From positions 8,314 through 72,313 of the forward strand of contig JAJYMC010000040.1 in NCBI GenBank assembly GCA_021787335.1: DNA of 64,000 nucleotides. The letters run 5' to 3'. The notes beneath the pieces are model-generated. The model did no database searches. It was not told where the DNA came from and worked only from the letters and a program-made list of their open reading frames with translations. Source of the DNA: Bacillota bacterium. GTDB taxonomy: Bacteria > Bacillota > Sulfobacillia > JAJYWN01 > JAJZPE01. Below, in pieces: positions 352 to 62,372 of this stretch; positions within the stretch are counted from its first letter, which is position 1, and each line of letters starts with the position of its first letter. Both the position numbers and the translations under genes were made by a program.

Positions 352-886
352 GGATCTCTCCTGAACAGTTAGCCGCGGATGCAGATGCGACAGGGTTCAG
401 ACCCGACAGTTGGCGGCGGGCAAGCTTGCCGCATTGTTGTCACGCCGGCAAGCTAGGGATCTCTTTGACAGCGTCCGAATCCTCCAGGCACCCGAAATCA
501 GTCGAGACAAGCTTCGACTCGCCTTGGTTGTCTATTGCGCGTTGAACCGGGAGAACCTGATCGATTCCTCTCCGGCGAGCGTTACCTTCAATCCGGCAGA
601 GCTGGCACAGAAGCTCGTCCCGACACTGCGTGTGATTGGCGATCGAAAGCAACGGCAAGGGACGATATACGGTAGTAGGTCTCTGGTTGAGGATTGCCGG
701 GTCGCACTGTCGAGTGTGTTACCCTTCACGGAACTCGAGCGCGAGTTTCTAAGGCGGGTGTGTGACTTGGGCGAAGTCGCTCCTGAGCTTCTTACAGCGG
801 ACGAGTCACTTCAGGACCGAATCAGGAGACACCCGGCTCTGGCGTGGAAGACCCAGAACGTCAGACAGCACAAAGGTTTGCCCTAA
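348..886 (+). pseudogene. AbiEii/AbiGii-family nucleotidyltransferase toxin, frameshifted and internally deleted
   Basis: The ATG at 348 gives MRISPEQLAADADATGFRPD (AbiEii-like N-terminus), after which the frame degenerates. A second frame (410-886) gives the C-terminal helical part (KLAALLSRRQARDLFD...). The nucleotidyltransferase core that normally lies between them is absent. Confidence 0.55.
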
Positions 887-1015
887 GGGAGTGGACGGCT
901 TGGTCGGTGCTTCCTACTACCGTATGAAGAGAAAACGCCGAAGATGGGTCTTGGCCGCCTGGCGTACTGGGCGGCCTTTCCGTGATGCCCTTGACACGAT
1001 TGGTGACGTCCACCC

Positions 1016-2074
1016 TTAGAACGGAATCTCCCAGTCCTCGATGACCTTCCGGGGCGCCAGTTCGACCGTCCCGCAGCAGCGCTTGTACTTCTTGCCGCTC
1101 CCGCACCAGCAGGGGTCGTTGCGACCGGGCGGCCAGGGGATGGTCTTTCCCCGCGCCGCCAGCTCGGCGGCGTACCGTTCCCGGGAGTCAAGGTGCCCGG
1201 GTTCGAGTCCCTGCCGCTCGCACCAGAGAAGATAGGCATCCATCTTGATGGCGACCAGGGACGGCTTGACGCCGATCGCTGACACGCTCAGCAGGCGCCG
1301 TTGGAGCAGGCGGCTGTATGCTTCGTGGTTCGGCGCTCGCCATCTGGCCTTGAGCCATGGCCACCTCTCGGTGGCCGCCGCGAAATCGGCCTGGGGGAAC
1401 CAGGCCATGATGGCAACCACTTCGTCGATGGTGTCCCCGATGTCCTCCAGGGCAAGGGCGGCGGCCTCGTACGGGGCTCGCGTCAAGAGCCCGTTCGACC
1501 GCTTCTCCGCTTCCCGGAGGTACCGCCGGACCCGGTCCTGGAGCTCGTCCGGAACGGGCCCAAGGGCGGTCAGGCTCTTCTCTCGTATCGCGGACAACTG
1601 GTCCGCGATGCCCTCGGGGTCGTCGGTTCGCAGGGCCAGATCGAGCCCCTCGGTCAGCCATTGCAGGGCCCGCTCATGGTCGCCGACATCGGTGTAGGCC
1701 ATGGCGGCGACGTTGTAAAGATAAATCTGGTCTGGGTTATCGTCCTTCATTGTCGCGAACAGGGCATGGGCCTCGTCGGCCCGGCCGGCTTGGAGGAGGA
1801 ATTCGGCGATGCGGTACCGCCCGTCGGGCTCTCCCTCCCAGCCATGGGCGATGGCTCGCTTCATGGCCGCGATGGCCTGATCGAAGCGGCCCAGCTTGGC
1901 GTAGTATCCGGCCTGCTCTTCGAGCAGCTCGGGCAGGTCGTAGAGCTCCGCGGCCCCTGGTTTGGTCACGATTTGATCAATGAGCCTGATGGCCGTCTCG
2001 TACTGGGGAGCCTTGGCCTTCTCGGCTTCTTCCAGAGCCTCGATCAGGTGGCGCAGGCTGGGCATGGTCTTCAT
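1016..2074 (-). CDS. TPR-like repeat protein with C-terminal SEC-C metal-binding motif
   Basis: 352-aa ORF. The C-terminus contains CWCGSGKKYKRCCG (SEC-C motif). The N-terminal half is helical-repeat/TPR-like. Confidence 0.75.
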   Translation of the reverse strand: MKTMPSLRHLIEALEEAEKAKAPQYETAIRLIDQIVTKPGAAELYDLPELLEEQAGYYAKLGRFDQAIAAMKRAIAHGWEGEPDGRYRIAEFLLQAGRADEAHALFATMKDDNPDQIYLYNVAAMAYTDVGDHERALQWLTEGLDLALRTDDPEGIADQLSAIREKSLTALGPVPDELQDRVRRYLREAEKRSNGLLTRAPYEAAALALEDIGDTIDEVVAIMAWFPQADFAAATERWPWLKARWRAPNHEAYSRLLQRRLLSVSAIGVKPSLVAIKMDAYLLWCERQGLEPGHLDSRERYAAELAARGKTIPWPPGRNDPCWCGSGKKYKRCCGTVELAPRKVIEDWEIPF

Positions 2075-2583
2075 TTCCCTCCTGATGGGCCGGCCCCGTG
2101 GCCATCGCCCACCGGGTTGTTGTCTTCCGGATCATCCTCGCCGGTATGGCCGTCCCACCGGCGGCCGTATTGGTCGGGGATCCAGCCCCAGCCCCAGACC
2201 GCGATGGGCTTCCGGGGAGTGATGCCCGCCTCTTCACGCGGGTCCACGTTGGTCTGAAAGACCCGGCAGTTGTGTTTCCAGTTGTCCCCGAGGTCGAAGA
2301 CGTAGGTGAACGGATCGCCCTCGACCATCACCGAACCGGCCTTAATCAGCGTGTAATGCATCCCATATTCATCATCTGGCAAACCGTAGCAGCGGCCGTC
2401 CGGAAACTCGAATTCGTGTAGGTGGGAGATGTCCCACCGGGCGAAGGCCTGATCTATCGCCTCGGCCAGGTCTTTCAAGGTGTGCCGGGGGCCGACCAGC
2501 ATGATCCGCCCCGGGCGCCACCTAAGCCGCAGGCCACCACCCGATTCCAGCTCAACCCGGACTGTGAACCAACCCTCGGTCAT
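2071..2583 (-). CDS. pRiA4b ORF-3-like family protein
   Basis: 170-aa ORF with the family-typical FxFDLGDNWxH core (YVFDLGDNWKHNCRV). There is a 4-nt overlap with the SEC-C gene downstream. Confidence 0.65.
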   Translation of the reverse strand: MTEGWFTVRVELESGGGLRLRWRPGRIMLVGPRHTLKDLAEAIDQAFARWDISHLHEFEFPDGRCYGLPDDEYGMHYTLIKAGSVMVEGDPFTYVFDLGDNWKHNCRVFQTNVDPREEAGITPRKPIAVWGWGWIPDQYGRRWDGHTGEDDPEDNNPVGDGHGAGPSGGK

Positions 2584-2680
2584 TCACCCACCCCCATCGT
2601 CACAGCATTGTTTGACACTTTCGCGTCAAGCCCTGCAATTCACTGGGCTATTCTCGCCAGAACCCACCCGGCGGGCACGG

Positions 2681-2711
2681 AAAAAGAGCAGGGTGGCATC
2701 GCCCCCTGCTC
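2681..2711 (-). terminator. Rho-independent terminator candidate after the saccharopine-dehydrogenase-family gene
   Basis: GAGCAGGG / CCCTGCTC 8-bp stem, followed on the minus strand by TTTTT. Confidence 0.5.
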
Positions 2712-2774
2712 CTTTCCGTCTCTGGGCCATTGCTCCTAAGTTCGCGTCCGGGCGCCGTCAAAGGCGGGCCTTAT

Positions 2775-4022
2775 TCACTCCACCACATGCTCGACCTTGA
2801 TCCCGCGCTTCTCGAGCTCGTCCATGTACGGCTGGAAGGGGACGTCGGTCGGGTAGATGAGGCCGCGCTGCTTGATGGTCCCGTCGAGGATCATGTGGGC
2901 GCCGATGCTGGCCGGGTAGCCGACCGTGCGGCTCATGGCGGTGAAGCCGGTGGCCAGGTCGCGGTAGTCGATGATCTGGTAGATTACGCGGGCGGGCCGG
3001 CCGCCCTTCTTGCCGCGCGCGTCGATGCGGATGAGGGCCACGTCGCGTTCGCTGTCGGCGTAGTGGAACTGTTTCTGCGAGCCCATCAGGGCGGTGATGA
3101 AGTCGAGCGGGGTCACGGTGACCTCGCCGGCGCCGCCCTGGGCCGCGCCCGTCTTAGCCTGGCCCACCTTGACCGGCACCTCGGTCAAGAACCCGCACTT
3201 GGCCGCGACCTCCCAGAAGGCTCCGTGGCCGGGCCAGCGGTTGGTGTAACGGGCCATCGAGCGGACGGTCTTCCCGATGCCCAGCTCGTCGATGTACTTG
3301 ATGGCGTCGCCGTTGGGGAAGGACTCGAGCCGGCCGCCGACCTCGGGGATGTCGAGGTAGTGCATGTTGGCCGGCGCAAACTGGTCGGCCGCGGCGATGT
3401 CCACCACCGCGCCGTCCTTGAGGATGCGCGCGGGCCGGTAGTACGAATGGAAGAGGCCCTCGATGGACCAGGAGAACTTATAGTTGATGGGGTTGTTGCA
3501 GGCCGCGCGCTCGGGGAAGCCGGCCCCGTAAGAGTAGAACTCATAGACCTCGTCCAGCTCCCGCACGGCCTGCAGGCTCAGGGCCAGGTCGATGCCGGGG
3601 TCCATGCCGAACTCGCACAGCTGGGTGATGCCCTTCTTCTTGGCCTTCTCGTCGAGGGCGGCCAGCTCGTCGCGCCGCGCGGCGACCTTGGCCGGGTCTT
3701 CCTCGCCGGGGTTCGTGTAGTACATGGTGCTGACACTGCTGACCCCGACCTCGGCGGCCAACTTGGCGGTGGGCAGGCTGAGCCGGCCCGGCAGCAGCTC
3801 GATGACCACGTCGGACTGGCCCATCAGGGCCGCGAGCCCGTCCCGGTCGGAAGCGTCCAGGGTCACCCCGCGGACCTTGTCCGACTTGGGCAGGCGCTCC
3901 TTGAGCACCTGGGCGCCGTCGACGACGGTGACCTGCGCGATGTCCCGGGACGCAAGCAGGTCGTGCAGGGCCACGCGCCCCTGCATGCCCAGGCCGAGCA
4001 ATAAGACCCTTCCTCCAGCCAT
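2775..4022 (-). CDS. Saccharopine dehydrogenase family NAD(P)-binding oxidoreductase
   Basis: 415-aa ORF with N-terminal Rossmann motif VLLLGLGMQGR and overall saccharopine/homospermidine-dehydrogenase-like sequence. Confidence 0.8.
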   Translation of the reverse strand: MAGGRVLLLGLGMQGRVALHDLLASRDIAQVTVVDGAQVLKERLPKSDKVRGVTLDASDRDGLAALMGQSDVVIELLPGRLSLPTAKLAAEVGVSSVSTMYYTNPGEEDPAKVAARRDELAALDEKAKKKGITQLCEFGMDPGIDLALSLQAVRELDEVYEFYSYGAGFPERAACNNPINYKFSWSIEGLFHSYYRPARILKDGAVVDIAAADQFAPANMHYLDIPEVGGRLESFPNGDAIKYIDELGIGKTVRSMARYTNRWPGHGAFWEVAAKCGFLTEVPVKVGQAKTGAAQGGAGEVTVTPLDFITALMGSQKQFHYADSERDVALIRIDARGKKGGRPARVIYQIIDYRDLATGFTAMSRTVGYPASIGAHMILDGTIKQRGLIYPTDVPFQPYMDELEKRGIKVEHVVE

Positions 4023-9459: not shown

Positions 9460-10133
9460 TTGCCAGCCTCGTCCTCACCGACCTCTTTCGCAGTGCGAAG
9501 AGGTTTGCCGTCGGCTTGCCGATGTTGGTCCTGGTCGCTCCGGTCGTCGACCTGGTGATGGGAGCCGAGGTCGCCAGCGGGATGGTGCCCGCCTTTTTCA
9601 CTCTGCTGGCCTGGGACCACCTGCAACAGACCGCCCTGACCGAGGACAAGGAGCAAACGTGGGAGTTCCTGCGGGTTCTCCCTTTGTCGCCGGTCACCAT
9701 TGTCACAGTCAGGTTCCTTTCAAACGGGGCCGCCATTCTGATGTACGCCCTCGTCGGGACGTTGACCGCGATCTCGATCCCGCTAGTGAGGCAGGCGGTA
9801 AGTCCGGGGGACTGGCCCATCTTCATCGCTTTCACCGTCGCCGTGAGCCTGCTGATGATGGCCTGGTTCAACGCCCGTTACTACCGGGCCGGCTACCGAG
9901 GGGTCATGACGAACGGGGCGGTCACCTACGTCATTCTGCTGGTCGTCGGCGTGGCCGTGCTCATGGCGCGAACGCCCGTCATCCCCGTCATCCGGGCGGT
10001 CACGACAGCCTACCACTGGGCGCAGGCGCAGCCGGCCCCGGCGTTGACCGCCATTGTGGCGTCGACACTGGTCCTGGTCGTGCTCAGCTGGGGTTACTCC
10101 GTGACTGTCTTCTCGCGCAAGGAGTTCCACTGA
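9456..10133 (+). CDS. ABC-2-type membrane protein (putative permease subunit)
   Basis: 225-aa multi-TM ORF overlapping the ATPase stop by 4 nt. Confidence 0.6.
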   Translation: MIASLVLTDLFRSAKRFAVGLPMLVLVAPVVDLVMGAEVASGMVPAFFTLLAWDHLQQTALTEDKEQTWEFLRVLPLSPVTIVTVRFLSNGAAILMYALVGTLTAISIPLVRQAVSPGDWPIFIAFTVAVSLLMMAWFNARYYRAGYRGVMTNGAVTYVILLVVGVAVLMARTPVIPVIRAVTTAYHWAQAQPAPALTAIVASTLVLVVLSWGYSVTVFSRKEFH

Positions 10134-27436: not shown

Positions 27437-30400
27437 CTAATCCGCCACGTTCTCGCCTTTCAGATACTCCACCATCTTCGGGGCCAGCCGCGGGGCGACC
27501 TCGGCCAGCATGCCCGGCATGATCCGGCCCATGACCACCGGGAGCATGCCCGGCAGGTTCTTCTCCATGTCCGCGGGCATGTCGGGGATGGCCTTCTTCA
27601 TCAGCTCCATGACCTTGGGCATGAGCTTCGGCATCATCCCGGGGAAGAGCATCGGCATCAGCATCGGAATCATCTTTTCCATGGCCCCCAGGGCCGGGTC
27701 GCGGACGATCGCCGGCATGCCGGCCACCCCGTTCATCATCCCCTGCATCGCGCCGGGCATGGCCTTCATGATCTCGGGCATCATGTCGCCCATCATCTTG
27801 ACGATGCCGTCGGAGTTCATTATCTCGATGGCCTTCTTGAAGACGCTCCACATGTAGATGGTGTTCTCGGTGGTATTCCGGACCTCGTAGCCGAGGGCTT
27901 CGGCGACGAGCGCGGAGAAGTCGATGATGGGCAGGTCGCGGCCGGTCGAGTCGCCGCCCACGCGGAGCTGGAACTCGCAGCACGGGCAGGTGGTCGCCAG
28001 GACCTCGGCGCCTACGCCGATGGCCTCGTCGAGCCGGTCGGCGACGATCCGGTCGGACACGTTGAAGTCGCTGATCCGGGTGAGGACGCTGCCGCAGCAC
28101 TTGCCGTCCTCGCGGTTGGTCGTGCAGTCGACGTACTTGACCCCGGGGATGGCCTTCAGGGCCTCCCGCGGCGGCTCGTATATGCCGCCGTGTCGGCCGA
28201 TGTGGCAGGAGTCGTGCCAGCTGATGGTCTTCTCGATGGGCTTCTTGAACTTCAGCTTGCCTGCCTGGATCAGCTCGTTGGTGACCTCGGTGATGTGGCG
28301 GATCTTGATGTCGAAGGGGATGCCGAGCTTCTTGGCCGTCGCCGGGTAGTAGTGGGTCCAGCCGACCCAGCAGCCCGGGCAGGAGACGACGATCTCCTTG
28401 ACCCCGCGCTTGTTCATCTCGGTCAGGTTGTGCTTGACGACCATCTCGTACTCGGGGGTCAGGCCGGCGACGGCCATCGGCACGCCGCAGCAGGCCTCGT
28501 CCTTGCCGAGGTAGGTGAAGTCGACCTCGCCGTCCTTGAGGATGCGCACGGCGTTCTCGGCGATCTCCGACTCGACGAAGGAGGCGGTACAGCCGGCCCA
28601 GTAGGCCACCGGGGCCTTGTCCTTGATGACCGGGCGGACGTCCTCGGGGACCCAGGCGTCGCGCTCCGAGCGGCTCGCCGCCCAGATGTTGAGGTCCTGC
28701 TTGAGGCTGGCGCTCATCATCTCGAAGGCCGGGAAGGTGGCGTATTCGAGGTCCTGGACGAGGATGGGACGGATCTGGTCCCACAGCTCCTGGATGGGCA
28801 GGTGGACCATGCACACCGGGTTACACCTCTTGCAGGTCGTGCACATCAGGAAATTCTTGACCATCGCCTGGTCCAGGTTGGCCTTACCGCGGAGGTAGTC
28901 GCGCAGGAAGGACCACTTGCCGCGGGGCGAGGCGGTCTCCCAGCCCATCCCGAGGTGCAGGGTGCAGGTGTCGACGCAGTAGCCGCAGCCGGCGCAGGCG
29001 AAGGCGGCGTTGGTGAGCTTCTCGGCCAGGCGCCGCTTCATGTGCGGCCGGTCGGAGAGGAACCTCTCGGCCAGGGGCACCACGGCCTGGCCGACGCGGG
29101 CGGCCTTCATCGCCGTGCGGAGGAGGGCCGGGTTGCCGTTGCCGGCGATGAGCTTGCCGGGGTTGAAGACGTTCTTCGGGTCCAGCTCGGCCTTGGCCGT
29201 CTTGAGGCTCCGCAGGTGATCAGGCCCGAAGGCTTCCTTGGCCTCGTCGGTGAAGTAGAGGCCGACCGAGTAGGCCCGGCCGCCGTGCTTCTTGCTGATG
29301 TCCATCATGATGAGGGACTTGGCGAAACCCATGGTGTAGGCCCAGGTGCGCTGGTCGTGGAGGAGGAAGCACAAGAGGGCGACCTCGCCCTTGCCGACCA
29401 GGGAGCCCTCGATGGAGATGCCCTCGAGGCGGCGGGCGCCTTCCTCGATGACCTTGGCCACGGCCTTCAGCGGGACGATGGCCTCGCTGGGGATGAGCGA
29501 CGGGCCGATGCGCTTCAGGCGCATGGGATAGAACCGCTCACTCCACTCGTGGCGGGCGGCCTTCTCATCAAGCCAGTCCCCGCCGGCGGCGGCGACGATC
29601 TCCTTCAGGGCCGGGACGACGGCCGCGTCGCGGTCGGCCGGGAAAACGAACATGGCCAGGTGCTTGCCCTTGGGGATGCCCGGGCGGATGAGGCCGGTCT
29701 CTTGAGTGTGGGCGGCGCCGGCCACTCGGGCCTCGGCCTCCTCGGCCTCGGCGATTTCCTCGGCCTCTTCCTTCGTCTTCAGGAACTGGGCGGTGTTGAA
29801 GCTGACGTGCCAGATGGGCAGGTCGCGGCGGCCGACCTCCTCGACGACCTCGACGAGCTTCGCCAGGTCGGAGAAGGCGGCCACCATGACCGTCTCCTCG
29901 TCGAGCTTGCGAAGCTTCAGGGTGACCTCGGCGATGAAACCGGTGGTGCCCTCGGCCCGGTTGACCAGGTCGAGGTCGGCGCCGGTCATCGTCCGGACCT
30001 CGCCGGCCGGGGTGACCAGCTTGACCGAGACGACGTTGTCAGCGATGAAACCGAATTCGTAAGAGCCGATGCCCGAGCCGCCCTCGGCGACCCAGCCGCC
30101 GACGGTGGAGCCGGGGGCGCTGGTCGGATAGAGCCGCAGGGCCAAGCCCTCGGGCTTGAGGGCCTTCTCGAGGTTGGCCCAGATGACGCCGGGCTCGACG
30201 GTGACGGTGAGATTCCCGCGGTCGAAGGACAGGACATGGTTCATCCGGCGGAAGGCCACGACGACGCCGGCCTTGGCCGGGACGCTGCCGCCGTAGCCGC
30301 TGGTGGCGGCCCCGCGCGGGACGACCGGAAGCCCTTCACGCGTGGCCAGCTTGGCCAGGAAGACGAGGTCGTCGAGGTTCTCCGGCTGGACGACCGCGTC

Positions 30401-30538
30401 GGCCAGGTTGTCGAGCATCATCTCGACCACGTCCGGCAGGTTGCCCACGTCGCGCGAGTAGACAAGGCGTTCGTTACGGTCGAAGCGGGCTCTTTCGCCG
30501 AATCGATTCTCCAGCTCCTTTTTCACTCGTTCGTTCAT
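27437..30538 (-). CDS. Fused FAD-binding (GlcD-like) and Fe-S/CCG-domain (GlcF/GlpC/HdrD-like) oxidoreductase with Met-rich C-terminal extension
   Basis: FAD_binding_4-like N-terminus (VVPRGAATSGYGGSVP), two CxxCxxCxxxC clusters (CAGCGYCVDTC, CTTCKRCNPVC), and two CCG motifs. The last roughly 125 aa are about 22 percent Met. Confidence 0.85.
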   Translation of the reverse strand: MNERVKKELENRFGERARFDRNERLVYSRDVGNLPDVVEMMLDNLADAVVQPENLDDLVFLAKLATREGLPVVPRGAATSGYGGSVPAKAGVVVAFRRMNHVLSFDRGNLTVTVEPGVIWANLEKALKPEGLALRLYPTSAPGSTVGGWVAEGGSGIGSYEFGFIADNVVSVKLVTPAGEVRTMTGADLDLVNRAEGTTGFIAEVTLKLRKLDEETVMVAAFSDLAKLVEVVEEVGRRDLPIWHVSFNTAQFLKTKEEAEEIAEAEEAEARVAGAAHTQETGLIRPGIPKGKHLAMFVFPADRDAAVVPALKEIVAAAGGDWLDEKAARHEWSERFYPMRLKRIGPSLIPSEAIVPLKAVAKVIEEGARRLEGISIEGSLVGKGEVALLCFLLHDQRTWAYTMGFAKSLIMMDISKKHGGRAYSVGLYFTDEAKEAFGPDHLRSLKTAKAELDPKNVFNPGKLIAGNGNPALLRTAMKAARVGQAVVPLAERFLSDRPHMKRRLAEKLTNAAFACAGCGYCVDTCTLHLGMGWETASPRGKWSFLRDYLRGKANLDQAMVKNFLMCTTCKRCNPVCMVHLPIQELWDQIRPILVQDLEYATFPAFEMMSASLKQDLNIWAASRSERDAWVPEDVRPVIKDKAPVAYWAGCTASFVESEIAENAVRILKDGEVDFTYLGKDEACCGVPMAVAGLTPEYEMVVKHNLTEMNKRGVKEIVVSCPGCWVGWTHYYPATAKKLGIPFDIKIRHITEVTNELIQAGKLKFKKPIEKTISWHDSCHIGRHGGIYEPPREALKAIPGVKYVDCTTNREDGKCCGSVLTRISDFNVSDRIVADRLDEAIGVGAEVLATTCPCCEFQLRVGGDSTGRDLPIIDFSALVAEALGYEVRNTTENTIYMWSVFKKAIEIMNSDGIVKMMGDMMPEIMKAMPGAMQGMMNGVAGMPAIVRDPALGAMEKMIPMLMPMLFPGMMPKLMPKVMELMKKAIPDMPADMEKNLPGMLPVVMGRIMPGMLAEVAPRLAPKMVEYLKGENVAD

Positions 30539-30822
30539 GGTCGGACCTCCTTCGCCTTATGCAAGTTTTGTCTTGTGAAAATGGAGAGTCATGCGGGCTG
30601 GGCGTTTCTGCCTCTTTGTGAAGGAGAGCACTTTCTCTTTCCTTCCTACATCATATCTGCCCACCGATTTTACTACAATACTGTTCTTCGCTTTCGCTAG
30701 TAGTGAAAACAGCGGATAACTCCCCAGCTACATCGAGTGCCGTCCGAAGCCGCCCGGCTCGGTTTCGCTCATGAAGAAGGTCTGCCGCCCCCGGAGGGCG
30801 AAAACAAATAGGCCCGCAACGG

Positions 30823-33099: not shown

Positions 33100-33657
33100 C
33101 TACTTGGCCGCGTCGACGATGCCGCGGACGATCTGGTCGACCTCCGCCGGCACCTCCCCGAGGGATGACCCGGGGAAGAACGACGCGAGCAGCATCGGCC
33201 TGAGGGCGCTGATGTAGGTCCGGCCTTCCTTCGTAAAGACATTGATCTTGCAGGGCAGGAAGAGCCCGATGTCGATGTCCGACGTCAGGACGCGGTTGGC
33301 GTACTTGGCGTTGCAGATCTCGATGATCTTGAGCGGTTCGCGCTCGAAGCCCTTCTCCTTCAGCGTCGCCTGGACGTCGTGGACGTGCAGGACGCGGAAG
33401 CCCCGCTCGGCAGTCTTGTCCTCGACGGCGGCCACGGCCTCATCGAACGACTTCCCGGTGGTCACCGTGTACTTCATCTCGGGCACGTTCTCGACCGTCG
33501 AGGAGTCCTTCTCGGCCCGCAGCCGCCGCAGTTTGTCCTCGAGATCGTCCAGCTCGCGGGCCATCCCCGGCTTCAGGGAGTGGGCCGGCAGCCGCGAACG
33601 CAGTTCGGCCAGGTCGGTCTCGGTCTTGGCGATTTCGGCGTCGATGTCCCGGTTCAT
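33100..33657 (-). CDS. DUF302-domain protein with N-terminal coiled-coil extension
   Basis: DUF302-like core (FRVLHVHDVQATLKEKGF..PLKIIEICN..LPCKINVF) preceded by about 60 aa of charged helix. Confidence 0.7.
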   Translation of the reverse strand: MNRDIDAEIAKTETDLAELRSRLPAHSLKPGMARELDDLEDKLRRLRAEKDSSTVENVPEMKYTVTTGKSFDEAVAAVEDKTAERGFRVLHVHDVQATLKEKGFEREPLKIIEICNAKYANRVLTSDIDIGLFLPCKINVFTKEGRTYISALRPMLLASFFPGSSLGEVPAEVDQIVRGIVDAAK

Positions 33658-34040
33658 CAGACGACCTCCTTGATTCCCCGGGCCCGGACCTCGTTGACGA
33701 TGGTCCGCCAGGCCACGGGGGCCTCCGGCAGGACCCGCCCGTCGACCATCAGCAGGGGCAGCGAGACCTGCCGTTCCTGTATCATCTCCAACACCTTCGG
33801 GTAGCTATCCATCCGCTGGTCATCCACGTCGACATAGGTCACCCGGACCCGGCCGTTGTACTGGCGGTCCAAGATCTCACTGTACTGCTCGGTGATCTCC
33901 TCCTGAGATCGCGTCGGCCCTCAGCCGCCCGAGAAACAGGAGTCGCTCACCCGCGAACCGAAGACGACGAACTCGACCTCGGCCGGCAGCTTGGGTCCGC
34001 TTTCGGCCGGCGGCGCGGGGCGACGGTCTCTGAAGAACAT
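33657..34040 (-). CDS. ArsD/YuzD-like thioredoxin-fold protein interrupted by one in-frame TGA (33921-33923): selenoprotein candidate or pseudogene
   Basis: The ATG at 34040 lies behind an AAGGAGGG RBS. Track ORFs 33921..34142 and 33657..33872 are in the same frame, separated only by the TGA. The joined product reads VEFVVFGS..SCFSGG[TGA]GPTRSQEE...LPLLMVDG. The downstream part has no ATG of its own. Confidence 0.4.
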
Positions 34041-34134
34041 GGAAACCCTCCTTGGAATGAACGCAAGTGGAGAGGCGTGTGGCTGACGAGCCCGGGAGCG
34101 AGAGGCGGGCGCACGGCCCAGCTCAGGCCGGGCC

Positions 34135-34362
34135 TCAGCCAAAGCCGCAGGAGCCCGAGGACGAACCGGCGTCGGAACCGGCCGAGCCGCTCGACCCCGC
34201 GCCGGCCTTGGCGCCGGCTTTGACGAGGATGTGCCCGGAGTAGTCCTGACGGATGTTCTTGGTGCCGCATTCGGGGCAGGTCACGCCGTCCTTCTCTTTG
34301 ATCGAGACGGTGACGCTGAAGCGGTGCCCGCAGTCGCGGCAGGCGAAGTCATAGGTCGGCAC
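34135..34362 (-). CDS. FmdB-family zinc-ribbon protein
   Basis: A GTG start behind an AGGAGG RBS gives (M)PTYDFACRDCGHRF....CPECG, followed by a Gly/Ser/Ala-rich tail. Confidence 0.75.
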   Translation of the reverse strand: MPTYDFACRDCGHRFSVTVSIKEKDGVTCPECGTKNIRQDYSGHILVKAGAKAGAGSSGSAGSDAGSSSGSCGFG

Positions 34363-34511: not shown

Positions 34512-35207
34512 CTAGCGTGGGGTCTTTTTGCCCGGCCTCGACGAAATCAGCTTGATGATGCCGCCCGGTCCGAAACTCTCGACCGAGTCGATGGTCATCC
34601 CCGCCAGTCGCACGTTCTCGACCGTCCGGCGGTTGATGTTGGCCCCCACCACCCGGACGACGAGGGGGTTCATCCGGTCCATGATCGACCCGGCCAGCCC
34701 CAGGGCCCGGACGTGCTCAAGCATGATGACCCGTCCGTCGGGGCGGCAGACCCTGGCGACTTCTCTGAGCCCGGCCACCGGGTCGGGCACCGAGCAGAAG
34801 ACGAAGGTGTCGACCACGGTGTCGAAGCTGTCATCCGGGAAGGGCAGGGCCTGGGCGTCGGCCAGGAGCAGGCGGACGTCCACCTGAGTCGGGGTCGGGG
34901 CCGGGGGCGTGGCCTTCGTCGCAGGCTGAGCCGCGTCCAGCCGCCGCTTCGCCCGTTCGAGCATCTTCGGGGAGACGTCGACCGCCGTCACCCGGGTCCC
35001 TGGCCGGTAGAAGGGGATGTTCCTGCCGGTTCCCACGCCGACCTCGAGGACCTCGCCGCTCGTCTGATCGAAAATCTTCCTGCGCCATTCCGGCCGCCCC
35101 ATGCGGTCAAAGAAGTCATAGATGGCGGAAATGCGATCGTAGCGCCGGCTGACGGGGCGGCTTGAAGGGAGGACCCGGTCTTCGGTGGCCCCCGTCATCG
35201 GGCTCAC
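34512..35207 (-). CDS. Class I SAM-dependent methyltransferase
   Basis: Motif I VLEVGVGTGRN. There is a 4-nt overlap with the upstream gene. Confidence 0.8.
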   Translation of the reverse strand: MSPMTGATEDRVLPSSRPVSRRYDRISAIYDFFDRMGRPEWRRKIFDQTSGEVLEVGVGTGRNIPFYRPGTRVTAVDVSPKMLERAKRRLDAAQPATKATPPAPTPTQVDVRLLLADAQALPFPDDSFDTVVDTFVFCSVPDPVAGLREVARVCRPDGRVIMLEHVRALGLAGSIMDRMNPLVVRVVGANINRRTVENVRLAGMTIDSVESFGPGGIIKLISSRPGKKTPR

Positions 35208-35509
35208 TCCTTCCGGGCCAGGCTCTGCTGGGCGTTCGGCGGCGCGCTCAGGTCAGTCGAGCAGGACGGGCAGTAGCGCCAGTCGGGACTGACCGGCTGG
35301 CCGCATTTCGGGCACGTCCGCCGGAGGGTCTGGCCGCAGTGCGGACAGATTTGGAAGTTCTCCTGGATCGTGGCCCCGCAGTGCTGGCAGCGCGCATTCT
35401 CCCATGGCCAGTTGCGCGGGTGGTGATAGCCGCCGGACGTGCGGGCGGCGTTGTCCTCCATGACCCGCCAGATCAGCCAGGCCCCCAGCACCAGGAAGAG
35501 GAGCATCAT
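35204..35509 (-). CDS. Membrane-anchored double zinc-ribbon protein
   Basis: N-terminal TM helix followed by CQHCG..CPHCG and CPKCG..CPSC pairs. Confidence 0.65.
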   Translation of the reverse strand: MMLLFLVLGAWLIWRVMEDNAARTSGGYHHPRNWPWENARCQHCGATIQENFQICPHCGQTLRRTCPKCGQPVSPDWRYCPSCSTDLSAPPNAQQSLARKE

Positions 35510-35943
35510 CTCGGTTCACCTCGCCTTTCGGACCGCGGTCCGCCGCCGGACCCGGCCAGAGTCTGGCCGCAATAGGGACAGACCTGCCAGCCCGGCTCGG
35601 TCGGCCGCCCGCAATTGGGGCAACGCGAGTCGTGGCGATACCCGTGGCCGGCGCCGTCGTGGTGATACCCGCGGCCGGCGCCGTGGCGGTTGCCGATGAG
35701 CAGGTAGATGACCAGAACCACGAGGCCGATGATGAGGATGGTCCAGAGCGGGTTCCATAGACCGTAACCGTAACTTCCCATGAAGCCGCCGGGGCCGTGC
35801 ATCCAGTACATCATCCCGCCCATGGGGCCATAGAAGCCTCTTTGCCAATAGCCGGAGTAGGCCCAGTAGCCGAAGAGGTTGTACCCGACCACCGCCAGGA
35901 CCAGGACGGCGAGGGCGGCCCAGATCCACCAATTACGCCTCAC
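35506..35943 (-). CDS. Two-TM protein with Gly/Tyr/Met-rich loop, His-rich repeat and C-terminal zinc ribbon
   Basis: Order is TM1, loop GYWQRGFYGPMGGMMYWMHGPGGFMGSYGYG, TM2, HGAGRGYHHDGAGHGYRHD, then CPNCG..CPYCG. Confidence 0.65.
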   Translation of the reverse strand: MRRNWWIWAALAVLVLAVVGYNLFGYWAYSGYWQRGFYGPMGGMMYWMHGPGGFMGSYGYGLWNPLWTILIIGLVVLVIYLLIGNRHGAGRGYHHDGAGHGYRHDSRCPNCGRPTEPGWQVCPYCGQTLAGSGGGPRSERRGEPR

Positions 35944-35954
35944 GTTCGCTCACC

Positions 35955-36935
35955 TCACTTGGGCGCACCCAGCCAGCCAAAGCCGGCCTGACCGGTGTAG
36001 CCGTTGACGAGGACCGCCGGGCCAGACTTGCCGCCGCCCGCGGTCTGGAACTCGTAATAGCCGTAGAAGGCGACCGGCGAACCCTGAACGGCCAGGGTGT
36101 TGCCCTGGTTGGAGGCCAGGAAGCCGGCGGCCGCCTTGGCCGCGTTGGCGGCGTTGACGGTCATCTCGGGAATCTGGACGGTGGCGCCGTTGGCCGAAGC
36201 GCCCGGAGTGACCGCGGGACCAACGCCCGGTACCATGCCGTTACCGCGGAAGCCGCAGCCGTAACCAGGCCCGGGGCCGTAGCCCGCGGCGTAACCCGGA
36301 CCATAGCCCGGACCGTAGACGGTCCCGCTGACGCCGTACTTGACGTCCCAGTGCATGGCCAGACCCATCTCGCGGGCGGCCAGGCCGCTGCCCTTATCGA
36401 CGACCACGTTGAAAGCGGCGTGGCCCGTGCTCTTCTCGGCGACCAGGAACGACCAGGCCCGCTCGTATTCGGTCGGCGCGCCGGCGACGACCAGGTCTTT
36501 GCCGGTGGTGCCGAGGCCGCTGAGGTATTTGTCAACGGCCTTGGCCGCCTGGTCCTGCGTGATGGTGGCGACGTTGGCCGGGAGGGTGCCGCTTCCATAT
36601 CCATAGGCGCCCATCATCCCGTAGCCGGGGCCATAAGCGGTACTGTAACCGGCGGCATAGCCGCCCATCATCCCATAACCGGAGCCGTAGCCCGCGCCAT
36701 AGCCGGAGCTGTAGCCCGCGCCATACGTGGAGCCGTAACCCGCGGCGTAGCCGCCCATCATCCCATACCCGCCGAAGCCGTACGTCTGGCCGTTGGCCGC
36801 GGTCTGAGAAGCCACCGGATAGGCCGTTTGGTAGGCCCGTGCTTGAGCGCTGGCCTTGACTTGCCAGAAGCCGAAGACGCCCAAGCCGATCAGGGCCAGG
36901 CTGAGAGCGGTGAGAAAGATACGTCGTCTCGACAT
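35955..36935 (-). CDS. Membrane-anchored protein with two Gly/Tyr/Met-rich low-complexity blocks, each followed by a PepSY-like domain
   Basis: MSRRRIFLTAL... anchor, with GYG/MMGGYAAGY repeats. The start at 36935 (GAGGGGG RBS) is preferred because the upstream GTG at 36992 lies only about 14 nt from the -12 promoter element. Confidence 0.6.
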   Translation of the reverse strand: MSRRRIFLTALSLALIGLGVFGFWQVKASAQARAYQTAYPVASQTAANGQTYGFGGYGMMGGYAAGYGSTYGAGYSSGYGAGYGSGYGMMGGYAAGYSTAYGPGYGMMGAYGYGSGTLPANVATITQDQAAKAVDKYLSGLGTTGKDLVVAGAPTEYERAWSFLVAEKSTGHAAFNVVVDKGSGLAAREMGLAMHWDVKYGVSGTVYGPGYGPGYAAGYGPGPGYGCGFRGNGMVPGVGPAVTPGASANGATVQIPEMTVNAANAAKAAAGFLASNQGNTLAVQGSPVAFYGYYEFQTAGGGKSGPAVLVNGYTGQAGFGWLGAPK

Positions 36936-37004
36936 TAGTGATGCCCCCTCTTGGAGAGGCCGGCGCAATGAGCCGGCCATTGTAGAATTCACTGTGATTA
37001 TCCA

Positions 37005-61138: not shown

Positions 61139-61768
61139 TCAAGGCTTCTTCAGTTTGGTGTTGATCGGTTCAGCGGCCGGGATGGCCCCAATGGCGGTCA
61201 GCGAGATGGAGTTGCCGGCGCCAATGAGGTTGACCTTCGCGCCATTGTCGAAGTAGTCGATGAGGGTGTCGTCAATGGAGGCCGGAGCGGCGACACCGCC
61301 CCAGTAGTAGGCCGTCGCACCGGCCACGGCCGGGCTCGGGTTGAGGCCCTGCGGCAGCGGAGCGCTCGCGAGGGCCAGGTCAGTTAGGGCCCCAGGGGTC
61401 TGGCCGGGGTCACCGAGGACGTACTTGGTGGCGTTGGTGCTGGCTACGCCGTCCCAGTTGACCGCGTAGAAGTAGAAGTTGTTGTAACCGTTGGCGAAGA
61501 TGAAATCCTGCTTGAGGAACCCGTTGTTGACGAGCATCTTGAGGTTCAGCGGATAGCGGCCGTACTTCAGGAAGAACTGCTCCAGCGCGCTCTCAACGGT
61601 CTTGATGTCGGCCGAGCCCTTGCCGGCCTTGGAATTCGTGATCGCGCTCATGACCCGGGGCAGAGCGATGGTCGCCAGGATGCCCAGGATGGCCACGACG
61701 GCCAGGAGCTCGATCAGGGTGAAGCCTCGCTCATCCTTCCGATGACGGTTCCATACAGCCTTCATCAT
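61139..61768 (-). CDS. pilA: Major type IV pilin (PilA/GspG-like)
   Basis: KDERGFTLIELLAVVAILGILATIALP. It is the first pilin gene, lies behind a 600-bp leader region and is followed by a hairpin. Confidence 0.8.
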   Translation of the reverse strand: MMKAVWNRHRKDERGFTLIELLAVVAILGILATIALPRVMSAITNSKAGKGSADIKTVESALEQFFLKYGRYPLNLKMLVNNGFLKQDFIFANGYNNFYFYAVNWDGVASTNATKYVLGDPGQTPGALTDLALASAPLPQGLNPSPAVAGATAYYWGGVAAPASIDDTLIDYFDNGAKVNLIGAGNSISLTAIGAIPAAEPINTKLKKP

Positions 61769-62372
61769 GTTGTAACTTACCCCCTTTGGAGTTTCCTCCT
61801 GCCCCCCAAGCGTTGCGGGTCTCTGTGTTGGTCTCGCGTCTCGGTGTTGGGCTCACGTCCGTGTTGGCCGCCATTTTAACTTGTCGGCCAAAAACATTGG
61901 CCGTCTTTCCGGGCTTATAGACGCCACCGAAAAGACGGCCAAATATCTTTGTGCCCTCTTCGGTAACCCAGCCGTCGTGGCCGCCCCGTCGCCGGGGTCG
62001 GCTGTAGACCTGTGGCTTTGCGTCACCGCCTTTCAGCGGTTTTGCCCTTGTCGGTAAGGCTCATTCACTTTTTAGGTAGGGGTGGACTTCTTCTCCACTC
62101 CTATGCAAAATCCTTCCGGTCAATGACAATTTTGGCTGTGTCCAGAATCCGTACAGCCAGATGCCCACCGGCCCCTCCTCCTGACCCGCCTTAAGCTCGG
62201 CCGGACCAGGACCCCCCAGCTAGAACCCCCTCCTCGATTTCCCTACTGGTAACCCGAGCCTATCTTACCATCCAGATGTTAACGGAACATTAAATCGACG
62301 GGCTCCCAATTGTTAAATCTCCGGCCTGCTATCCGACGCGCCCGGCAACCCCAGGTGGGGCGCGGCTCGCTC

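What the first reader, a model, noticed from the sequence alone, without database searches (positions are those of the whole stretch)
33657..34040. ArsD-like thioredoxin-fold gene with a single in-frame TGA at a metal-binding Cys position: selenocysteine candidate
**Seen in the sequence**
- An ATG with an excellent RBS (AAGGAGGG) opens a frame that reads MFFRDRRPAPPAESGPKLPAEVEFVVFGSRVSDSCFSGG.
- It then hits TGA (33923-33921) and continues in the same frame as GPTRSQEEITEQYSEILDRQYNGRVRVTYVDVDD...SLPLLMVDGRVL...
- The downstream piece has no ATG. The track start for it is a TTG.
- The joined protein looks like ArsD/YuzD. As I recall the ArsD N-terminus (VFDPAMCCSTGVCG...LPLLLLDG), the motif C-F-S-G-G-[TGA]-G aligns with C-S-T-G-V-C-G. 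This places the TGA exactly at the third metalloid-binding Cys.
- A 6-bp stem with loop AGGAG (GAUCUC-AGGAG-GAGAUC, 33910-33894) starts 11 nt after the UGA, roughly where a bacterial SECIS would sit.

**Alternative**
- A TGC-to-TGA nonsense mutation would make this a pseudogene.
Basis: partly seen in the sequence, partly recalled or inferred. Interest (0 to 1): 0.7.

Follow-up and report, generated by a model that had tools for sequence, protein, structure and literature searches.

The report
Unannotated thioredoxin-fold selenoprotein gene pair
The "stop" codon inside this small gene is almost certainly read as the rare amino acid selenocysteine, which reveals a thioredoxin-like selenoprotein family (with a probable second selenoprotein next door) that gene finders split in two and that the selenoprotein catalogues I could check do not list.

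Summary
A 127-codon ORF (window 34040-33657, minus strand) has a strong RBS, one in-frame TGA (33923-33921), and a 6-bp hairpin starting 10 nt after it.

The TGA is not a lesion. All 37 distinct homologous gene sequences recovered carry TGA at this codon. They come from Bacillota and Chloroflexota MAGs, metagenomes, and the isolate Phosphitispora fastidiosa (GC 0.36-0.68). More distant relatives carry Cys there. The codons flanking the TGA vary synonymously. The codons inside the hairpin stem are frozen, and the basal pair covaries (G-C, A-U, U-A, C-G). The hairpin meets all four published bacterial SECIS criteria.

The protein has a thioredoxin fold. It is closest to YuzD/DUF1462 (PDB 1XG8) and more distant from ArsD. 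No NCBIfam selenoprotein model matches it, and a 2026 inventory of 119 families does not list it.

The upstream FmdB-type zinc-ribbon gene also "stops" at TGA, followed by 1-3 codons and a second stop (13/13 loci), so it is a probable second selenoprotein. Thioredoxin reductase and DUF302 are recurrent neighbours.

Untested: Sec machinery in these genomes, and biochemical function.

The parts
34046..34053 (-). Ribosome-binding site AAGGAGGG, 5 nt upstream of the ATG
   Evidence: Read directly from the sequence
33657..34040 (-). Complete selenoprotein gene: 127 codons (Sec at codon 40) plus the stop TGA at 33659-33657. YuzD/DUF1462-like thioredoxin fold.
   Evidence: The family alignment has an invariant Sec/Cys column. 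PDB 1XG8 matches at E 4.9e-10. An AF2 model of a homologue has pLDDT 88.6.
33936..33938 (-). Cys35 codon (TGT), the conserved partner Cys 3-4 residues before the Sec (C-x4-U here, C-x3-U in Chloroflexota)
   Evidence: It aligns with ArsD Cys13.
33921..33923 (-). In-frame TGA, inferred selenocysteine codon (residue 40)
   Evidence: TGA in 37 of 37 distinct homologous genes. Cys in distant homologues. Synonymous variation in the flanking Gly/Pro codons.
33894..33910 (-). SECIS-type hairpin GAUCUC-AGGAG-GAGAUC. It has a 10-nt spacer, and its apical loop starts 16 nt after the UGA.
   Evidence: 99.1% of cells paired against 24-61% for slid controls; 0/500 shuffles reach the covariation score. The basal pair is G-C 13, A-U 21, U-A 1, C-G 1, with 1 mismatch. 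Stem codons are frozen. It meets the bSECIS criteria quoted.
34123..34362 (-). Upstream FmdB-family zinc-ribbon gene (likely start at the GTG at 34362). The annotated stop TGA at 34137-34135 is a candidate second Sec codon. It is followed by GGC CCG GCC (G-P-A) and the true stop TGA at 34125-34123. The tail reads ...S-C-G-F-G-U-G-P-A.
   Evidence: TIGR02605 51.6 bits against a cutoff of 31.3. The same TGA + 1-3 codons + stop architecture occurs in 13/13 distinct loci. P0116 has Cys at that position.
34106..34120 (-). Candidate SECIS for the zinc-ribbon gene: UGGGC-CGUGC-GCCCG, with the loop starting 19 nt after the UGA. It competes with a stronger stem closer to the UGA.
   Evidence: The same CGUGC loop sits on unrelated stems in L016 and L042.
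33100..33657 (-). Downstream DUF302 gene. Its ATG overlaps the selenoprotein stop (TGATG), which suggests translational coupling. It has an N-terminal 'PAHSLKP' coiled-coil extension.
   Evidence: Pfam DUF302 E 2.2e-19. Adjacent in 6 distinct loci (9 blast hits counting duplicate assemblies). The extension is homologous to a stand-alone small protein in Phosphitispora.
34512..35207 (-). Class I SAM methyltransferase upstream of the pair (context only). A similar gene lies next to the module in L023.
   Evidence: All hits are below the NCBIfam cutoffs.

Best explanation
Window 34040-33657 (minus strand) is one intact gene for a roughly 14-kDa selenoprotein.

Decoding. The UGA at codon 40 is decoded as selenocysteine by the standard bacterial route, in which SelB carrying Sec-tRNA(Sec) is recruited by an mRNA hairpin. 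The hairpin is a minimal SECIS (6-bp stem, loop AGGAG) that starts 10 nt after the UGA and lies within the codons for S-Q-E-E-I.

The protein. It has a thioredoxin fold of the YuzD/DUF1462 type and is distantly related to ArsD. Sec40 and Cys35 (C-x4-U-G-P) sit in the flexible loop between strand 1 and helix 1.

Function (inferred, about 55%). The Cys/Sec pair cycles between selenol/thiol and a selenenylsulfide. It is kept reduced by the thioredoxin reductase that is encoded alongside in many genomes. It works with the adjacent FmdB-type zinc-ribbon protein, whose C-terminal tail (C-x2-6-G-U-x1-3) is probably also selenocysteine-bearing.

Alternative function (about 30%). The same residues bind a soft metal or metalloid, as ArsD's Cys triad does.

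Shown: TGA conservation, the Sec/Cys pairing, translation through the TGA, RNA-level constraint, the fold, and the gene neighbourhood. Inferred: actual Sec insertion, the chemistry, and the partners.
For: (1) TGA conservation. A TGN search of GTDB genomes that left the third base free gave 10 true members, all TGA. Six homologues chosen only by C-terminal protein similarity are all TGA. L003, L004 and the isolate P. fastidiosa are TGA. A metagenome scan gave 19 of 19 TGA. The total is 37 distinct sequences.

(2) Sec/Cys pair. P0005, P0024, P0015, and the P0028/P0032-P0048 clade (C-D-A-H-C-G) have Cys at the invariant column.

(3) Translation continues through the TGA. Gly(-1) uses 3 synonymous codons, while Gly(+1) and Pro(+2) use 4 each. 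No start codon is conserved after the TGA.

(4) RNA constraint. Inside the stem, Ser is TCT in 20/20, Glu is GAG in 20/20, and Gln is CAA in 11/11 and CAG in 15/15. The loop Glu varies (GAG 12, GAA 7). 99.1% of cells pair, no shuffle (0/500) reaches the covariation score, and slid controls give 24-61%. The basal pair occurs in four types.

(5) bSECIS criteria are all met: a 5-nt loop with G at positions 2-3, a 6-bp stem, 16 nt spacing, and MFE -10.4 kcal/mol.

(6) TGA is the commonest ordinary stop in the window, so there is no code reassignment.

(7) Fold. AF2 gives pLDDT 88.6 and pTM 0.80. The best PDB match is 1XG8 at TM 0.71, with ArsD at TM 0.5-0.6. The profile against the PDB hits 1XG8 at E 4.9e-10. 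hhalign to ArsD gives 90.8%, with U on Cys18.

(8) Context. TrxB (TIGR01292, 356-415 bits against a cutoff of 343) gives blast hits in 18 loci, about a third of them at only 35-37% identity. The FmdB partner also appears in 18 loci and DUF302 in 6 distinct ones.
Against: - No tRNA-Sec, selA or selD was found in the window or in any fetched locus (349 kb in all).
- The hairpin is not thermodynamically exceptional on its own.
- At 16 nt, the hairpin sits at the very bottom of the allowed UGA-to-loop range.
- The stem also encodes the conserved peptide S-x-E-E-I. One Cys-form homologue (L026) retains a similar hairpin shifted by 1 nt, so part of the conservation could be protein-driven.
- The window locus itself has no TrxB within 4.5 kb.
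- There is no protein-level evidence.
Confidence: 0.85

Rival explanations
1. The gene is a pseudogene. A TGC/TGT-to-TGA nonsense mutation inactivated a Cys-containing YuzD/ArsD-like gene.
For: A single-base change would suffice. Gene callers and the NCBI MAG annotation split the gene into 39-40-aa and 71-77-aa pieces.
Against: The same TGA occurs in 37 distinct sequences from two phyla with GC 0.36-0.68. Amino-acid conservation and synonymous variation are seen on both sides. No TGC/TGT occurs in the close subfamily. The DNA is identical in three assemblies.
Confidence: 0.01
2. The UGA really terminates. Two products are made: a 39-aa N-terminal peptide, and a C-terminal domain started from an internal codon (TTG at 33872). 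They may re-associate.
For: This is what automatic annotation predicts. A TTG exists 17 codons downstream.
Against: The ten codons immediately after the TGA (G-P-x-x-S-Q-E-E-I-T) are conserved as protein, with synonymous variation at Gly/Pro. They precede any possible start codon, and internal starts are not conserved in position or kind. Cys-form homologues are single polypeptides. The fold needs strand 1, which lies before the TGA.
Confidence: 0.03
3. The UGA is read through without the Sec machinery. Possible routes are near-cognate Trp or Cys insertion, or a locally altered genetic code.
For: Sec machinery was not found in the DNA held. Some database entries translate this codon as W (P0006, P0029, P0030).
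Against: Where checked, the W is a gene-caller artefact. The DNA of P0006 has TGA, and the entry does not translate under table 11. TGA is the main ordinary stop codon in the window. A conserved, covarying hairpin that meets the SECIS criteria has no role in simple near-cognate read-through. Homologues have Cys, not Trp, at the column.
Confidence: 0.06
4. The decoding is the same (Sec) but the job differs. The protein would be a metal or metalloid chaperone or sensor that works like ArsD, binding As(III)/Sb(III) or a soft metal through Cys35, Sec40 and the partner's Cys/Sec tail, rather than a redox protein.
For: hhalign to ArsD places Cys35 and Sec40 on the As-binding Cys13 and Cys18. The Cys-form homologue P0024 sits in an arsR-arsD-arsA operon, followed by an FmdB-type gene. 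A CsoR-type metal repressor follows the gene in L020. The Sec loop is flexible (low pLDDT), like a ligand loop. The review notes that several recent selenoprotein families are tied to metal or metalloid resistance.
Against: ArsD Cys12 is Ser here. No arsA or arsB lies next to any Sec-form locus. The most frequent enzymatic neighbour is thioredoxin reductase, sometimes with OsmC and a ferredoxin, which points to redox chemistry. ArsD model scores are far below cutoff.
Confidence: 0.3

Closest known systems
YuzD / DUF1462 (Pfam PF07315; PDB 1XG8, S. aureus SA0798)
   Same: Closest by sequence: 14 of 21 members hit PF07315 and the profile hits 1XG8 at E 4.9e-10. Closest by predicted fold: TM 0.71. 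It is a small single-domain thioredoxin-like protein of about 110 aa.
   Different: YuzD has a C-x-x-C motif. Here the Sec aligns with YuzD's second Cys, and the partner Cys lies 4-5 residues upstream (C-x3-4-U). In the sources I checked, no Sec form of DUF1462 is listed. The window protein only just reaches the gathering score (25.0 against 25).
ArsD arsenic metallochaperone (PF06953, NF033727; PDB 3KGK/3MWH)
   Same: It is a thioredoxin-fold protein with functional Cys residues in the loop between strand 1 and helix 1. hhalign gives 90.8% and puts Cys35 on Cys13 and Sec40 on Cys18, with an identical C/U-G-P-T. A Cys-form relative lies in an ars operon.
   Different: Model scores are far below cutoff (13.8-22.5 bits against 90; 15.7 against 27). 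Cys12 is Ser. There is no ArsA partner at the Sec-form loci. The structural match is weaker (TM 0.5-0.6) than to YuzD.
Known thioredoxin-fold bacterial selenoproteins (Trx/Grx UxxC, VPGUxxT family NF041383, 'distant Grx-like' UXX-star family 1 NF041114, PF13192 Sec.1/Sec.2)
   Same: Sec replaces a reactive Cys near the start of helix 1 of a thioredoxin fold. A SECIS lies within the coding sequence. Cys homologues exist. The local motif U-G-P-T fits 'UxxT'.
   Different: None of these NCBIfam or Pfam models matches any of the four members tested, even at E up to 10. The partner Cys is upstream (C-x4-U) rather than in UxxC or CxxU.
FmdB-family selenoproteins from the GOS survey, and the 'UXX-star/GUXX-star' families (for the neighbouring gene)
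   Same: The partner is an FmdB-family zinc ribbon (TIGR02605). FmdB-family selenoproteins were predicted in 2008. The partner's tail G-x-G-U-x-x-stop resembles the 'GxGU' and 'UXX-star' motifs listed in the 2026 review.
   Different: In the published FmdB case the Sec lies in the zinc-ribbon CxxC motif (CxxU/UxxU). Here it lies in the C-terminal tail, 1-3 residues from the end. The UXX-star models NF041211, NF041212 and NF041114 do not match. I could not read the paper that describes them.
Mammalian thioredoxin reductase C-terminal Gly-Cys-Sec-Gly tail (from my own knowledge)
   Same: A flexible C-terminal tail carries a Cys and a penultimate-region Sec that form a selenenylsulfide and shuttle electrons. 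The partner's ...C-G-F-G-U-G-P-A end has a similar layout.
   Different: The protein and the domain of life are unrelated, and the Cys-Sec spacing is 2-6 residues rather than adjacent. This is an analogy only, and nothing was tested.

Membership tests
Bacterial selenoprotein gene (SelB/SECIS-decoded UGA) | In-frame UGA conserved in orthologues, with protein conservation on both sides | tested here: met
   37 of 37 distinct sequences have TGA. Flanking codons vary synonymously.
Bacterial selenoprotein gene (SelB/SECIS-decoded UGA) | Cys-containing homologues with Cys aligned to the UGA (Sec/Cys pair) | tested here: met
   P0005, P0024, P0015 and the P0028/P0032-P0048 clade; the column is invariant.
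Bacterial selenoprotein gene (SelB/SECIS-decoded UGA) | [quoted passage not shown] | tested here: met
   Loop AGGAG, 6 bp, 16 nt, -10.4 kcal/mol. Conserved with covariation.
Bacterial selenoprotein gene (SelB/SECIS-decoded UGA) | selA, selB, selC (tRNA-Sec) and selD present in the same genome | not testable with these tools
   Only 64 kb of the genome is available. None was found in 349 kb of window plus loci, which is uninformative.
Bacterial selenoprotein gene (SelB/SECIS-decoded UGA) | Selenium demonstrated in the polypeptide (75Se labelling or mass spectrometry) | not testable with these tools
   This needs an experiment.
DUF1462 / YuzD (PF07315) | Score at or above the Pfam gathering threshold | tested here: met
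   The window protein scores 25.0 bits against a cutoff of 25 (borderline). 14 of 21 family members match at E <= 0.01, with a best E of 6.2e-11.
DUF1462 / YuzD (PF07315) | Fold matches the solved family member 1XG8 | tested here: met
   Foldseek ranks 1XG8 first at TM 0.71 for the AF2 model of homologue P0029. The profile hit is E 4.9e-10.
DUF1462 / YuzD (PF07315) | C-x-x-C motif as in SA0798 (C-A-S-C) | tested here: not met
   The Sec aligns with the second Cys, but the first Cys position is Ser/Gly. The partner Cys is displaced to give C-x3-4-U.
ArsD (PF06953 / NF033727) | Score at or above the curated cutoff | tested here: not met
   15.7 bits against 27 (Pfam). 13.8-22.5 bits against 90 (NCBIfam).
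ArsD (PF06953 / NF033727) | Cys12-Cys13-Cys18 metalloid-binding triad | tested here: not met
   hhalign gives Ser34 on Cys12, Cys35 on Cys13 and Sec40 on Cys18, so two of the three are present.
ArsD (PF06953 / NF033727) | Encoded with the ArsA ATPase in an ars operon | tested here: not met
   No arsA lies at the window or at any Sec-form locus. It is present only at the Cys-form locus L026.
Curated NCBIfam selenoprotein families (e.g. NF041114, NF041383, NF041211, NF041212, NF041197) | Match to the family HMM | tested here: not met
   The focal family has no hit at E <= 10. The partner has only a 12.6-bit hit to NF041197 against a cutoff of 40.
FmdB family zinc ribbon (TIGR02605), neighbouring gene | Match to the model above cutoff; two CxxC motifs | tested here: met
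   46.9-67 bits against a cutoff of 31.3 in the five partners scanned; the CxxC...CxxC columns are conserved across the seven aligned partners.

The most novel reading that the evidence does not exclude
The window holds a conserved module of two selenoproteins that has not been described. One is a YuzD/ArsD-like thioredoxin-fold protein with a C-x4-U loop. The other is an FmdB-type zinc-ribbon protein whose flexible C-terminal tail ends C-x2-6-G-U-x1-3. The module usually travels with thioredoxin reductase and/or DUF302, in anaerobic Bacillota and Chloroflexota.

If both UGAs encode Sec, a large part of the widespread, function-unknown FmdB family would be mis-annotated selenoproteins. 77 of the partner's 120 nearest relatives end ...FG or ...GG at the annotated stop. 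The pair would then form a selenium-based redox relay or a soft-metal/metalloid hand-off system.
Probability: 0.5. Interest if true: 0.72.

Novelty: new member of a known kind. Interest (0 to 1): 0.6.

Why it matters
- **Annotation.** The gene is split or truncated in every annotation I saw, including NCBI MAGs and the isolate Phosphitispora fastidiosa. In some metagenome entries the codon is mistranslated as Trp. A profile for this family would repair many records.
- **Catalogue of selenoproteins.** It adds a family to the prokaryotic selenoproteome whose Sec sits at the position of ArsD's Cys18. That gives a testable link between selenium and metalloid or redox chemistry in a fold whose YuzD branch has no known function.
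- **The neighbouring gene.** It suggests a first functional handle on the FmdB zinc-ribbon family, namely a reactive C-terminal Cys/Sec tail.
- **Experimental access.** The module exists in a cultured organism, so it can be tested directly.
- **Limits.** The decoding mechanism itself is entirely conventional, and more than 110 bacterial selenoprotein families are already known. This is an increment rather than a new principle.

Tried and rejected
- **Hairpin thermodynamics alone.** z-scores of -0.55 and +0.31 give no support.
- **Rfam.** No SECIS or other family matched at the locus under either the gathering or the E-value threshold.
- **First word-indexed protein search.** It returned only the window's own fragment.
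- **The search for related loci with the alignment.** It failed because no stretch was conserved enough. I replaced it with a DNA pattern that leaves the third base of the critical codon free.
- **The control "Cys forms lack the hairpin".** The result was mixed. L025 lacks it. L026 retains a hairpin shifted by 1 nt, either a possible fossil SECIS or a by-product of coding S-M-E-E-M.
- **Search for tRNA-Sec, selD and selA in held DNA.** Negative but uninformative.
- **Scan of the window for other in-frame TGA genes by codon bias.** The filter was too crude: it even missed the focal site and gave no credible extra candidate.
- **Literature.** No paper links DUF1462 or ArsD to selenoproteins. Haft & Tolstoy 2025, the source of the UXX-star families, could not be read. 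The 'YuzD' and 'Phosphitispora + seleno' searches were uninformative.
- **Methyltransferase upstream as ArsM.** Only generic class I similarity, far below cutoffs, so this was not pursued.
Full report
**1. The observation**

On the minus strand, the RBS AAGGAGGG (34053-34046) lies 5 nt before the ATG at 34040. The frame reads 39 codons (…VFGSRVSDSCFSGG) and meets TGA at 33923-33921. It then continues for 87 more codons (GPTRSQEEIT…GIKEVV) to the stop at 33659-33657. That stop overlaps the ATG of the next gene. The first possible start codon after the TGA is the TTG at 33872.

The hairpin GAUCUC-AGGAG-GAGAUC lies at 33910-33894 after a 10-nt spacer. Two other public assemblies carry identical DNA across the whole gene.

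By itself the hairpin is unremarkable. It folds no better than shuffled sequence (z = -0.55 and +0.31). No Rfam family matches at the locus.

**2. Is the TGA a lesion or a codon?**

An exhaustive HMMER search with the post-TGA part found 27 relatives. Most are 59-88 aa and start partway into the query, as expected if their gene calls are also cut by an upstream stop. A few are full length, and they have Cys just before a conserved Gly-Pro (…SSCGPTKSFEE, …EGCGPGISMEE).

One full-length entry shows Trp at that position. Its DNA has TGA there, and the entry does not translate under table 11, so the Trp is a gene-caller artefact.

I then collected DNA in four ways.
- **By protein similarity or lookup:** L003 (GC 0.41), L004 (an NCBI MAG, 57% identical) and six further homologues chosen only by their C-terminal similarity. 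All eight have TGA at the same codon. Each has an upstream ATG and the motif VFGSR…C-x3-4-[TGA]-G/A-P.
- **By a DNA pattern that left the third base of the codon free (TGN), in GTDB species genomes:** 13 hits. Ten are true members from Chloroflexota/Anaerolineae, Bacillota and Eubacteriales, and all ten are TGA. The three TGG hits are unrelated proteins.
- **By the same pattern in metagenomes:** 19 true members, all TGA, plus one unrelated TGC hit.
- **By adjacency to the partner gene in the cultured isolate Phosphitispora fastidiosa:** TGA again.

In total there are 37 distinct gene sequences, and all carry TGA. More distant relatives form a Cys clade (C-D-A-H-C-G…SSEEA). The Sec/Cys column is invariant in a 21-sequence alignment.

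TGA is also the commonest ordinary stop codon in the window, so the genetic code is standard.

**3. Translation through the TGA and the RNA constraint**

A codon table over 20 sequences separates two signals.
- The codons next to the TGA behave as translated protein. Gly(-1) is invariant but uses 3 codons. Gly(+1) uses 4 codons and Pro(+2) uses 4.
- The codons inside the stem are frozen at synonymous sites. Ser is TCT in 20/20, even in genomes with about 90% GC3. Glu is GAG in 20/20. Gln is CAA in 11/11 and CAG in 15/15.
- The Glu codon in the loop varies freely (GAG 12, GAA 7).

On a 19-sequence alignment the helix is paired in 99.1% of cells, against 24-61% when the partner columns are slid. 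No shuffle (0/500) reaches the observed covariation score.

Over all 37 distinct sequences the basal pair is G-C in 13, A-U in 21, U-A in 1 and C-G in 1, with one mismatch. In the ten sequences found without any requirement on the hairpin sequence, all four pair types occur.

The published bacterial SECIS model asks for four things (quoted): a 3-9 nt loop with G in its first two positions, a 4-16 bp stem, 16-37 nt between the UGA and the loop, and MFE of -7.5 kcal/mol or lower. This element has the loop AGGAG, 6 bp, exactly 16 nt, and -10.4 kcal/mol.

One caveat applies. The stem also encodes the conserved S-x-E-E-I. Of two Cys-form genes examined, one lacks the hairpin (L025) and one retains a version shifted by 1 nt (L026). 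The "Cys forms lack it" control is therefore only half met.

**4. What the protein is**

The joined protein reaches the Pfam gathering score for DUF1462/YuzD (25.0 against 25) and is sub-threshold for ArsD. Across the family, 14 of 21 members match DUF1462 and 2 match ArsD.

A family profile hits PDB 1XG8 (S. aureus SA0798, a YuzD-type protein) at E 4.9e-10. In that alignment the Sec falls on the second Cys of its C-A-S-C motif.

An AlphaFold2 model of a close homologue is confident (pLDDT 88.6, pTM 0.80) and shows a thioredoxin-like fold. The Sec and its partner Cys lie in a lower-confidence loop between strand 1 and helix 1. Foldseek ranks 1XG8 first (TM 0.71), with thioredoxins and ArsD (3KGK, 3MWH, 3KTB) at TM 0.5-0.6.

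Profile-profile comparison with a genuine ArsD (from locus L026) gives 90.8% probability. It aligns S-C-F-S-G-G-U-G-P-T with C-C-P-T-G-L-C-G-P-T. That places Cys35 on Cys13 and Sec40 on Cys18, while Cys12 is Ser.

Even so, the family is a YuzD-like branch of the thioredoxin superfamily with a remote ArsD relationship. It is not an ArsD.

**5. Neighbourhood**

In the window and its close relatives the gene order is: methyltransferase, FmdB-type zinc ribbon, this gene, DUF302 (start overlapping the stop), lgt, HTH regulator.

Across all loci the recurrent neighbours are as follows.
- **An FmdB-type zinc ribbon,** in 18 loci, including the Cys-form locus.
- **A bona fide thioredoxin-disulfide reductase** (TIGR01292, 356-415 bits against a cutoff of 343), with blast hits in 18 loci.
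- **DUF302,** in 6 distinct loci (9 blast hits counting duplicate assemblies).
- **OsmC and a CoA-binding protein,** in Chloroflexota.
- **A CsoR-type repressor,** in one locus.

The Cys-form homologue P0024 closes an arsR-arsD-arsA operon.

In P. fastidiosa the order is TrxB, ferredoxin, a small 'PAHSVKP' protein, this gene, then the FmdB partner. That small protein is homologous to the N-terminal extension of the window's DUF302 protein.

**6. A second candidate Sec codon next door**

The FmdB-type gene (34362-34135) ends …S-C-G-F-G. It then has TGA (34137-34135), then GGC CCG GCC, then TGA (34125-34123).

In all 13 distinct loci where this partner's end is visible, the annotated stop is TGA. 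It is preceded by …C-x2-6-[FG]-G and followed by 1-3 codons and a second stop.

In 11 of the 13, the best downstream hairpin has its loop starting 16-22 nt after the UGA, with G in the first two loop positions. The loop CGUGC recurs on unrelated stems. The window and L011 have the same kind of hairpin (UGGGC-CGUGC-GCCCG, 34120-34106) as an alternative to a stronger stem closer to the UGA.

Among the partner's 120 nearest database relatives, the annotated ends are distributed as follows.
- 52 end in FG and 25 in GG, and 71 of those 77 have a Cys in the last 14 residues.
- 20 end in Cys-rich tails.
- One (P0116) reads …GFG-C-A…, with Cys at the candidate Sec position.

This evidence is good but thinner than for the focal gene. 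There is only one clear Cys counterpart, the hairpins could not be aligned for a covariation test, and some of them could be terminators.

**7. How it most likely works**

- **Supported by comparative evidence:** the UGA is decoded. The hairpin has the form and position of a SelB-binding SECIS.
- **Inferred:** SelB carrying Sec-tRNA(Sec) inserts Sec at residue 40.
- **Function, best guess (about 55%):** a Cys35/Sec40 selenenylsulfide redox centre on a flexible loop. It would be recycled by thioredoxin reductase and would exchange with the partner's Cys/Sec tail.
- **Function, main alternative (about 30%):** a soft-metal or metalloid ligand site of the ArsD type.
- **Remainder:** unknown.

**8. 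Comparison with what is known, and novelty**

No NCBIfam model (release 20, June 2026) for any selenoprotein family matches the focal protein or three relatives, even at E up to 10. The partner matches only the generic FmdB model.

A May 2026 review tabulates 119 prokaryotic selenoprotein families. It lists no DUF1462, YuzD or ArsD-like entry. Its FmdB entry refers to Sec within the zinc-ribbon motif (UxxU/CxxU), which traces to the 2008 GOS survey. Full-text searches found no paper linking DUF1462 or ArsD to selenoproteins. The deep-Sep and BSepDB papers do not mention these families in their main text.

The 'UXX-star/GUXX-star' families of Haft & Tolstoy 2025 share the partner's C-terminal motif style, but their models do not match. 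I could not read that paper.

I therefore rate the focal gene as a new member of a known kind. It is a new selenoprotein family with an entirely conventional decoding mechanism. There is residual risk that it has been described somewhere I could not search.

**9. Limits**

- The decisive genomic test, selABCD in the same genome, could not be run.
- Nothing relevant lies in the 349 kb held.
- There is no protein-level evidence.
- Most of the 37 sequences were retrieved with a pattern that fixed the four inner stem pairs. Only the two outer pairs and the protein-similarity subset count as independent evidence for the helix.

Noticed in passing
window 34123-34362 (-); candidate Sec codon 34135-34137; hairpin 34106-34120: The upstream FmdB-type zinc-ribbon gene 'stops' at TGA, continues in frame G-P-A, and then stops again. 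The same TGA + 1-3 codons + stop architecture is present in 13/13 loci, with a SECIS-like hairpin whose loop starts 16-22 nt downstream in 11 of them. It is probably a second, C-terminal-tail selenoprotein. 77 of its 120 nearest database relatives end ...FG or ...GG at the annotated stop.
   Followed up: partly
L026 (Logan SRR22388033 contig), genes 80-3129 and 3156-3287: The Cys-form homologue P0024 closes an arsR-arsD-arsA operon and is followed by an FmdB-type gene whose tail is Cys-rich (…SGCCPPPGNWAR). Its DNA retains a hairpin like the SECIS but shifted by 1 nt, possibly a fossil of a Sec-to-Cys conversion.
   Followed up: partly
window 33100-33657 (-), residues 4-54; L027 9335-9583: The DUF302 protein has an N-terminal coiled-coil extension with a 'PAHS[LV]KP' motif. 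In Phosphitispora this extension exists as a separate 82-aa gene at the same position in the module (43% identity, E 2e-12). It has no Pfam family.
   Followed up: partly
L027 = Phosphitispora fastidiosa GCA_019008365.1, JAHHUL010000001.1; focal homologue about 9583-9921, TGA at 9649: A cultured isolate carries the whole module (TrxB, ferredoxin, PAHSVKP protein, Trx-fold Sec gene, FmdB partner). Its annotation calls only a 52-aa C-terminal fragment of the focal homologue. This organism is a candidate for experimental tests.
   Followed up: partly
database proteins P0006, P0029, P0030 (L003 for P0006): Metagenome gene callers translated the Sec TGA as Trp (genetic code 4), producing full-length 'W' versions of the protein. 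I verified this at the DNA level for P0006 only. Such W-for-U entries could be mined to find selenoproteins.
   Followed up: partly
database protein P0031: A Chloroflexota-type member reads …FCSS-R-R-GPTQSQEEIT where the others have G-U. Arg CGA is one mutation from TGA. Its DNA was not examined.
   Followed up: no
L018 (JBLNDL010000088.1): This contig is binned as Sphingomonadaceae, but its copy of the gene and its neighbours are of the Chloroflexota type (compare L006 and L014). The contig is probably mis-binned.
   Followed up: no
window 61959-62056 (-): A c-di-GMP-I riboswitch aptamer (Rfam RF01051, 76.9 bits, E 2.3e-13), upstream of the minus-strand ORF at 61139-61852.
   Followed up: no
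window 35204-35943 (-) and 35955-36992 (-): Two small membrane proteins with double zinc-ribbon C-termini overlap by 4 nt. Upstream of them lies a 345-aa Gly/Tyr-rich protein (repeats of GYG/AGYG) with no Pfam match. The arrangement is conserved in L001.
   Followed up: no
window 27437-30556 (-); L004 8814-10425: A 1033-aa fusion of FAD-binding/FAD-oxidase, 4Fe-4S and CCG domains (GlcD/GlcF- or HdrD-like). In the related MAG L004 the equivalent region is called as two overlapping shorter genes. This could be a frameshift or another recoding site, but it was not examined.
   Followed up: no
window 1127-1221 (+): tRNA-Ser (GCU) is the only tRNA in the window. There is no tRNA-Sec.
   Followed up: yes
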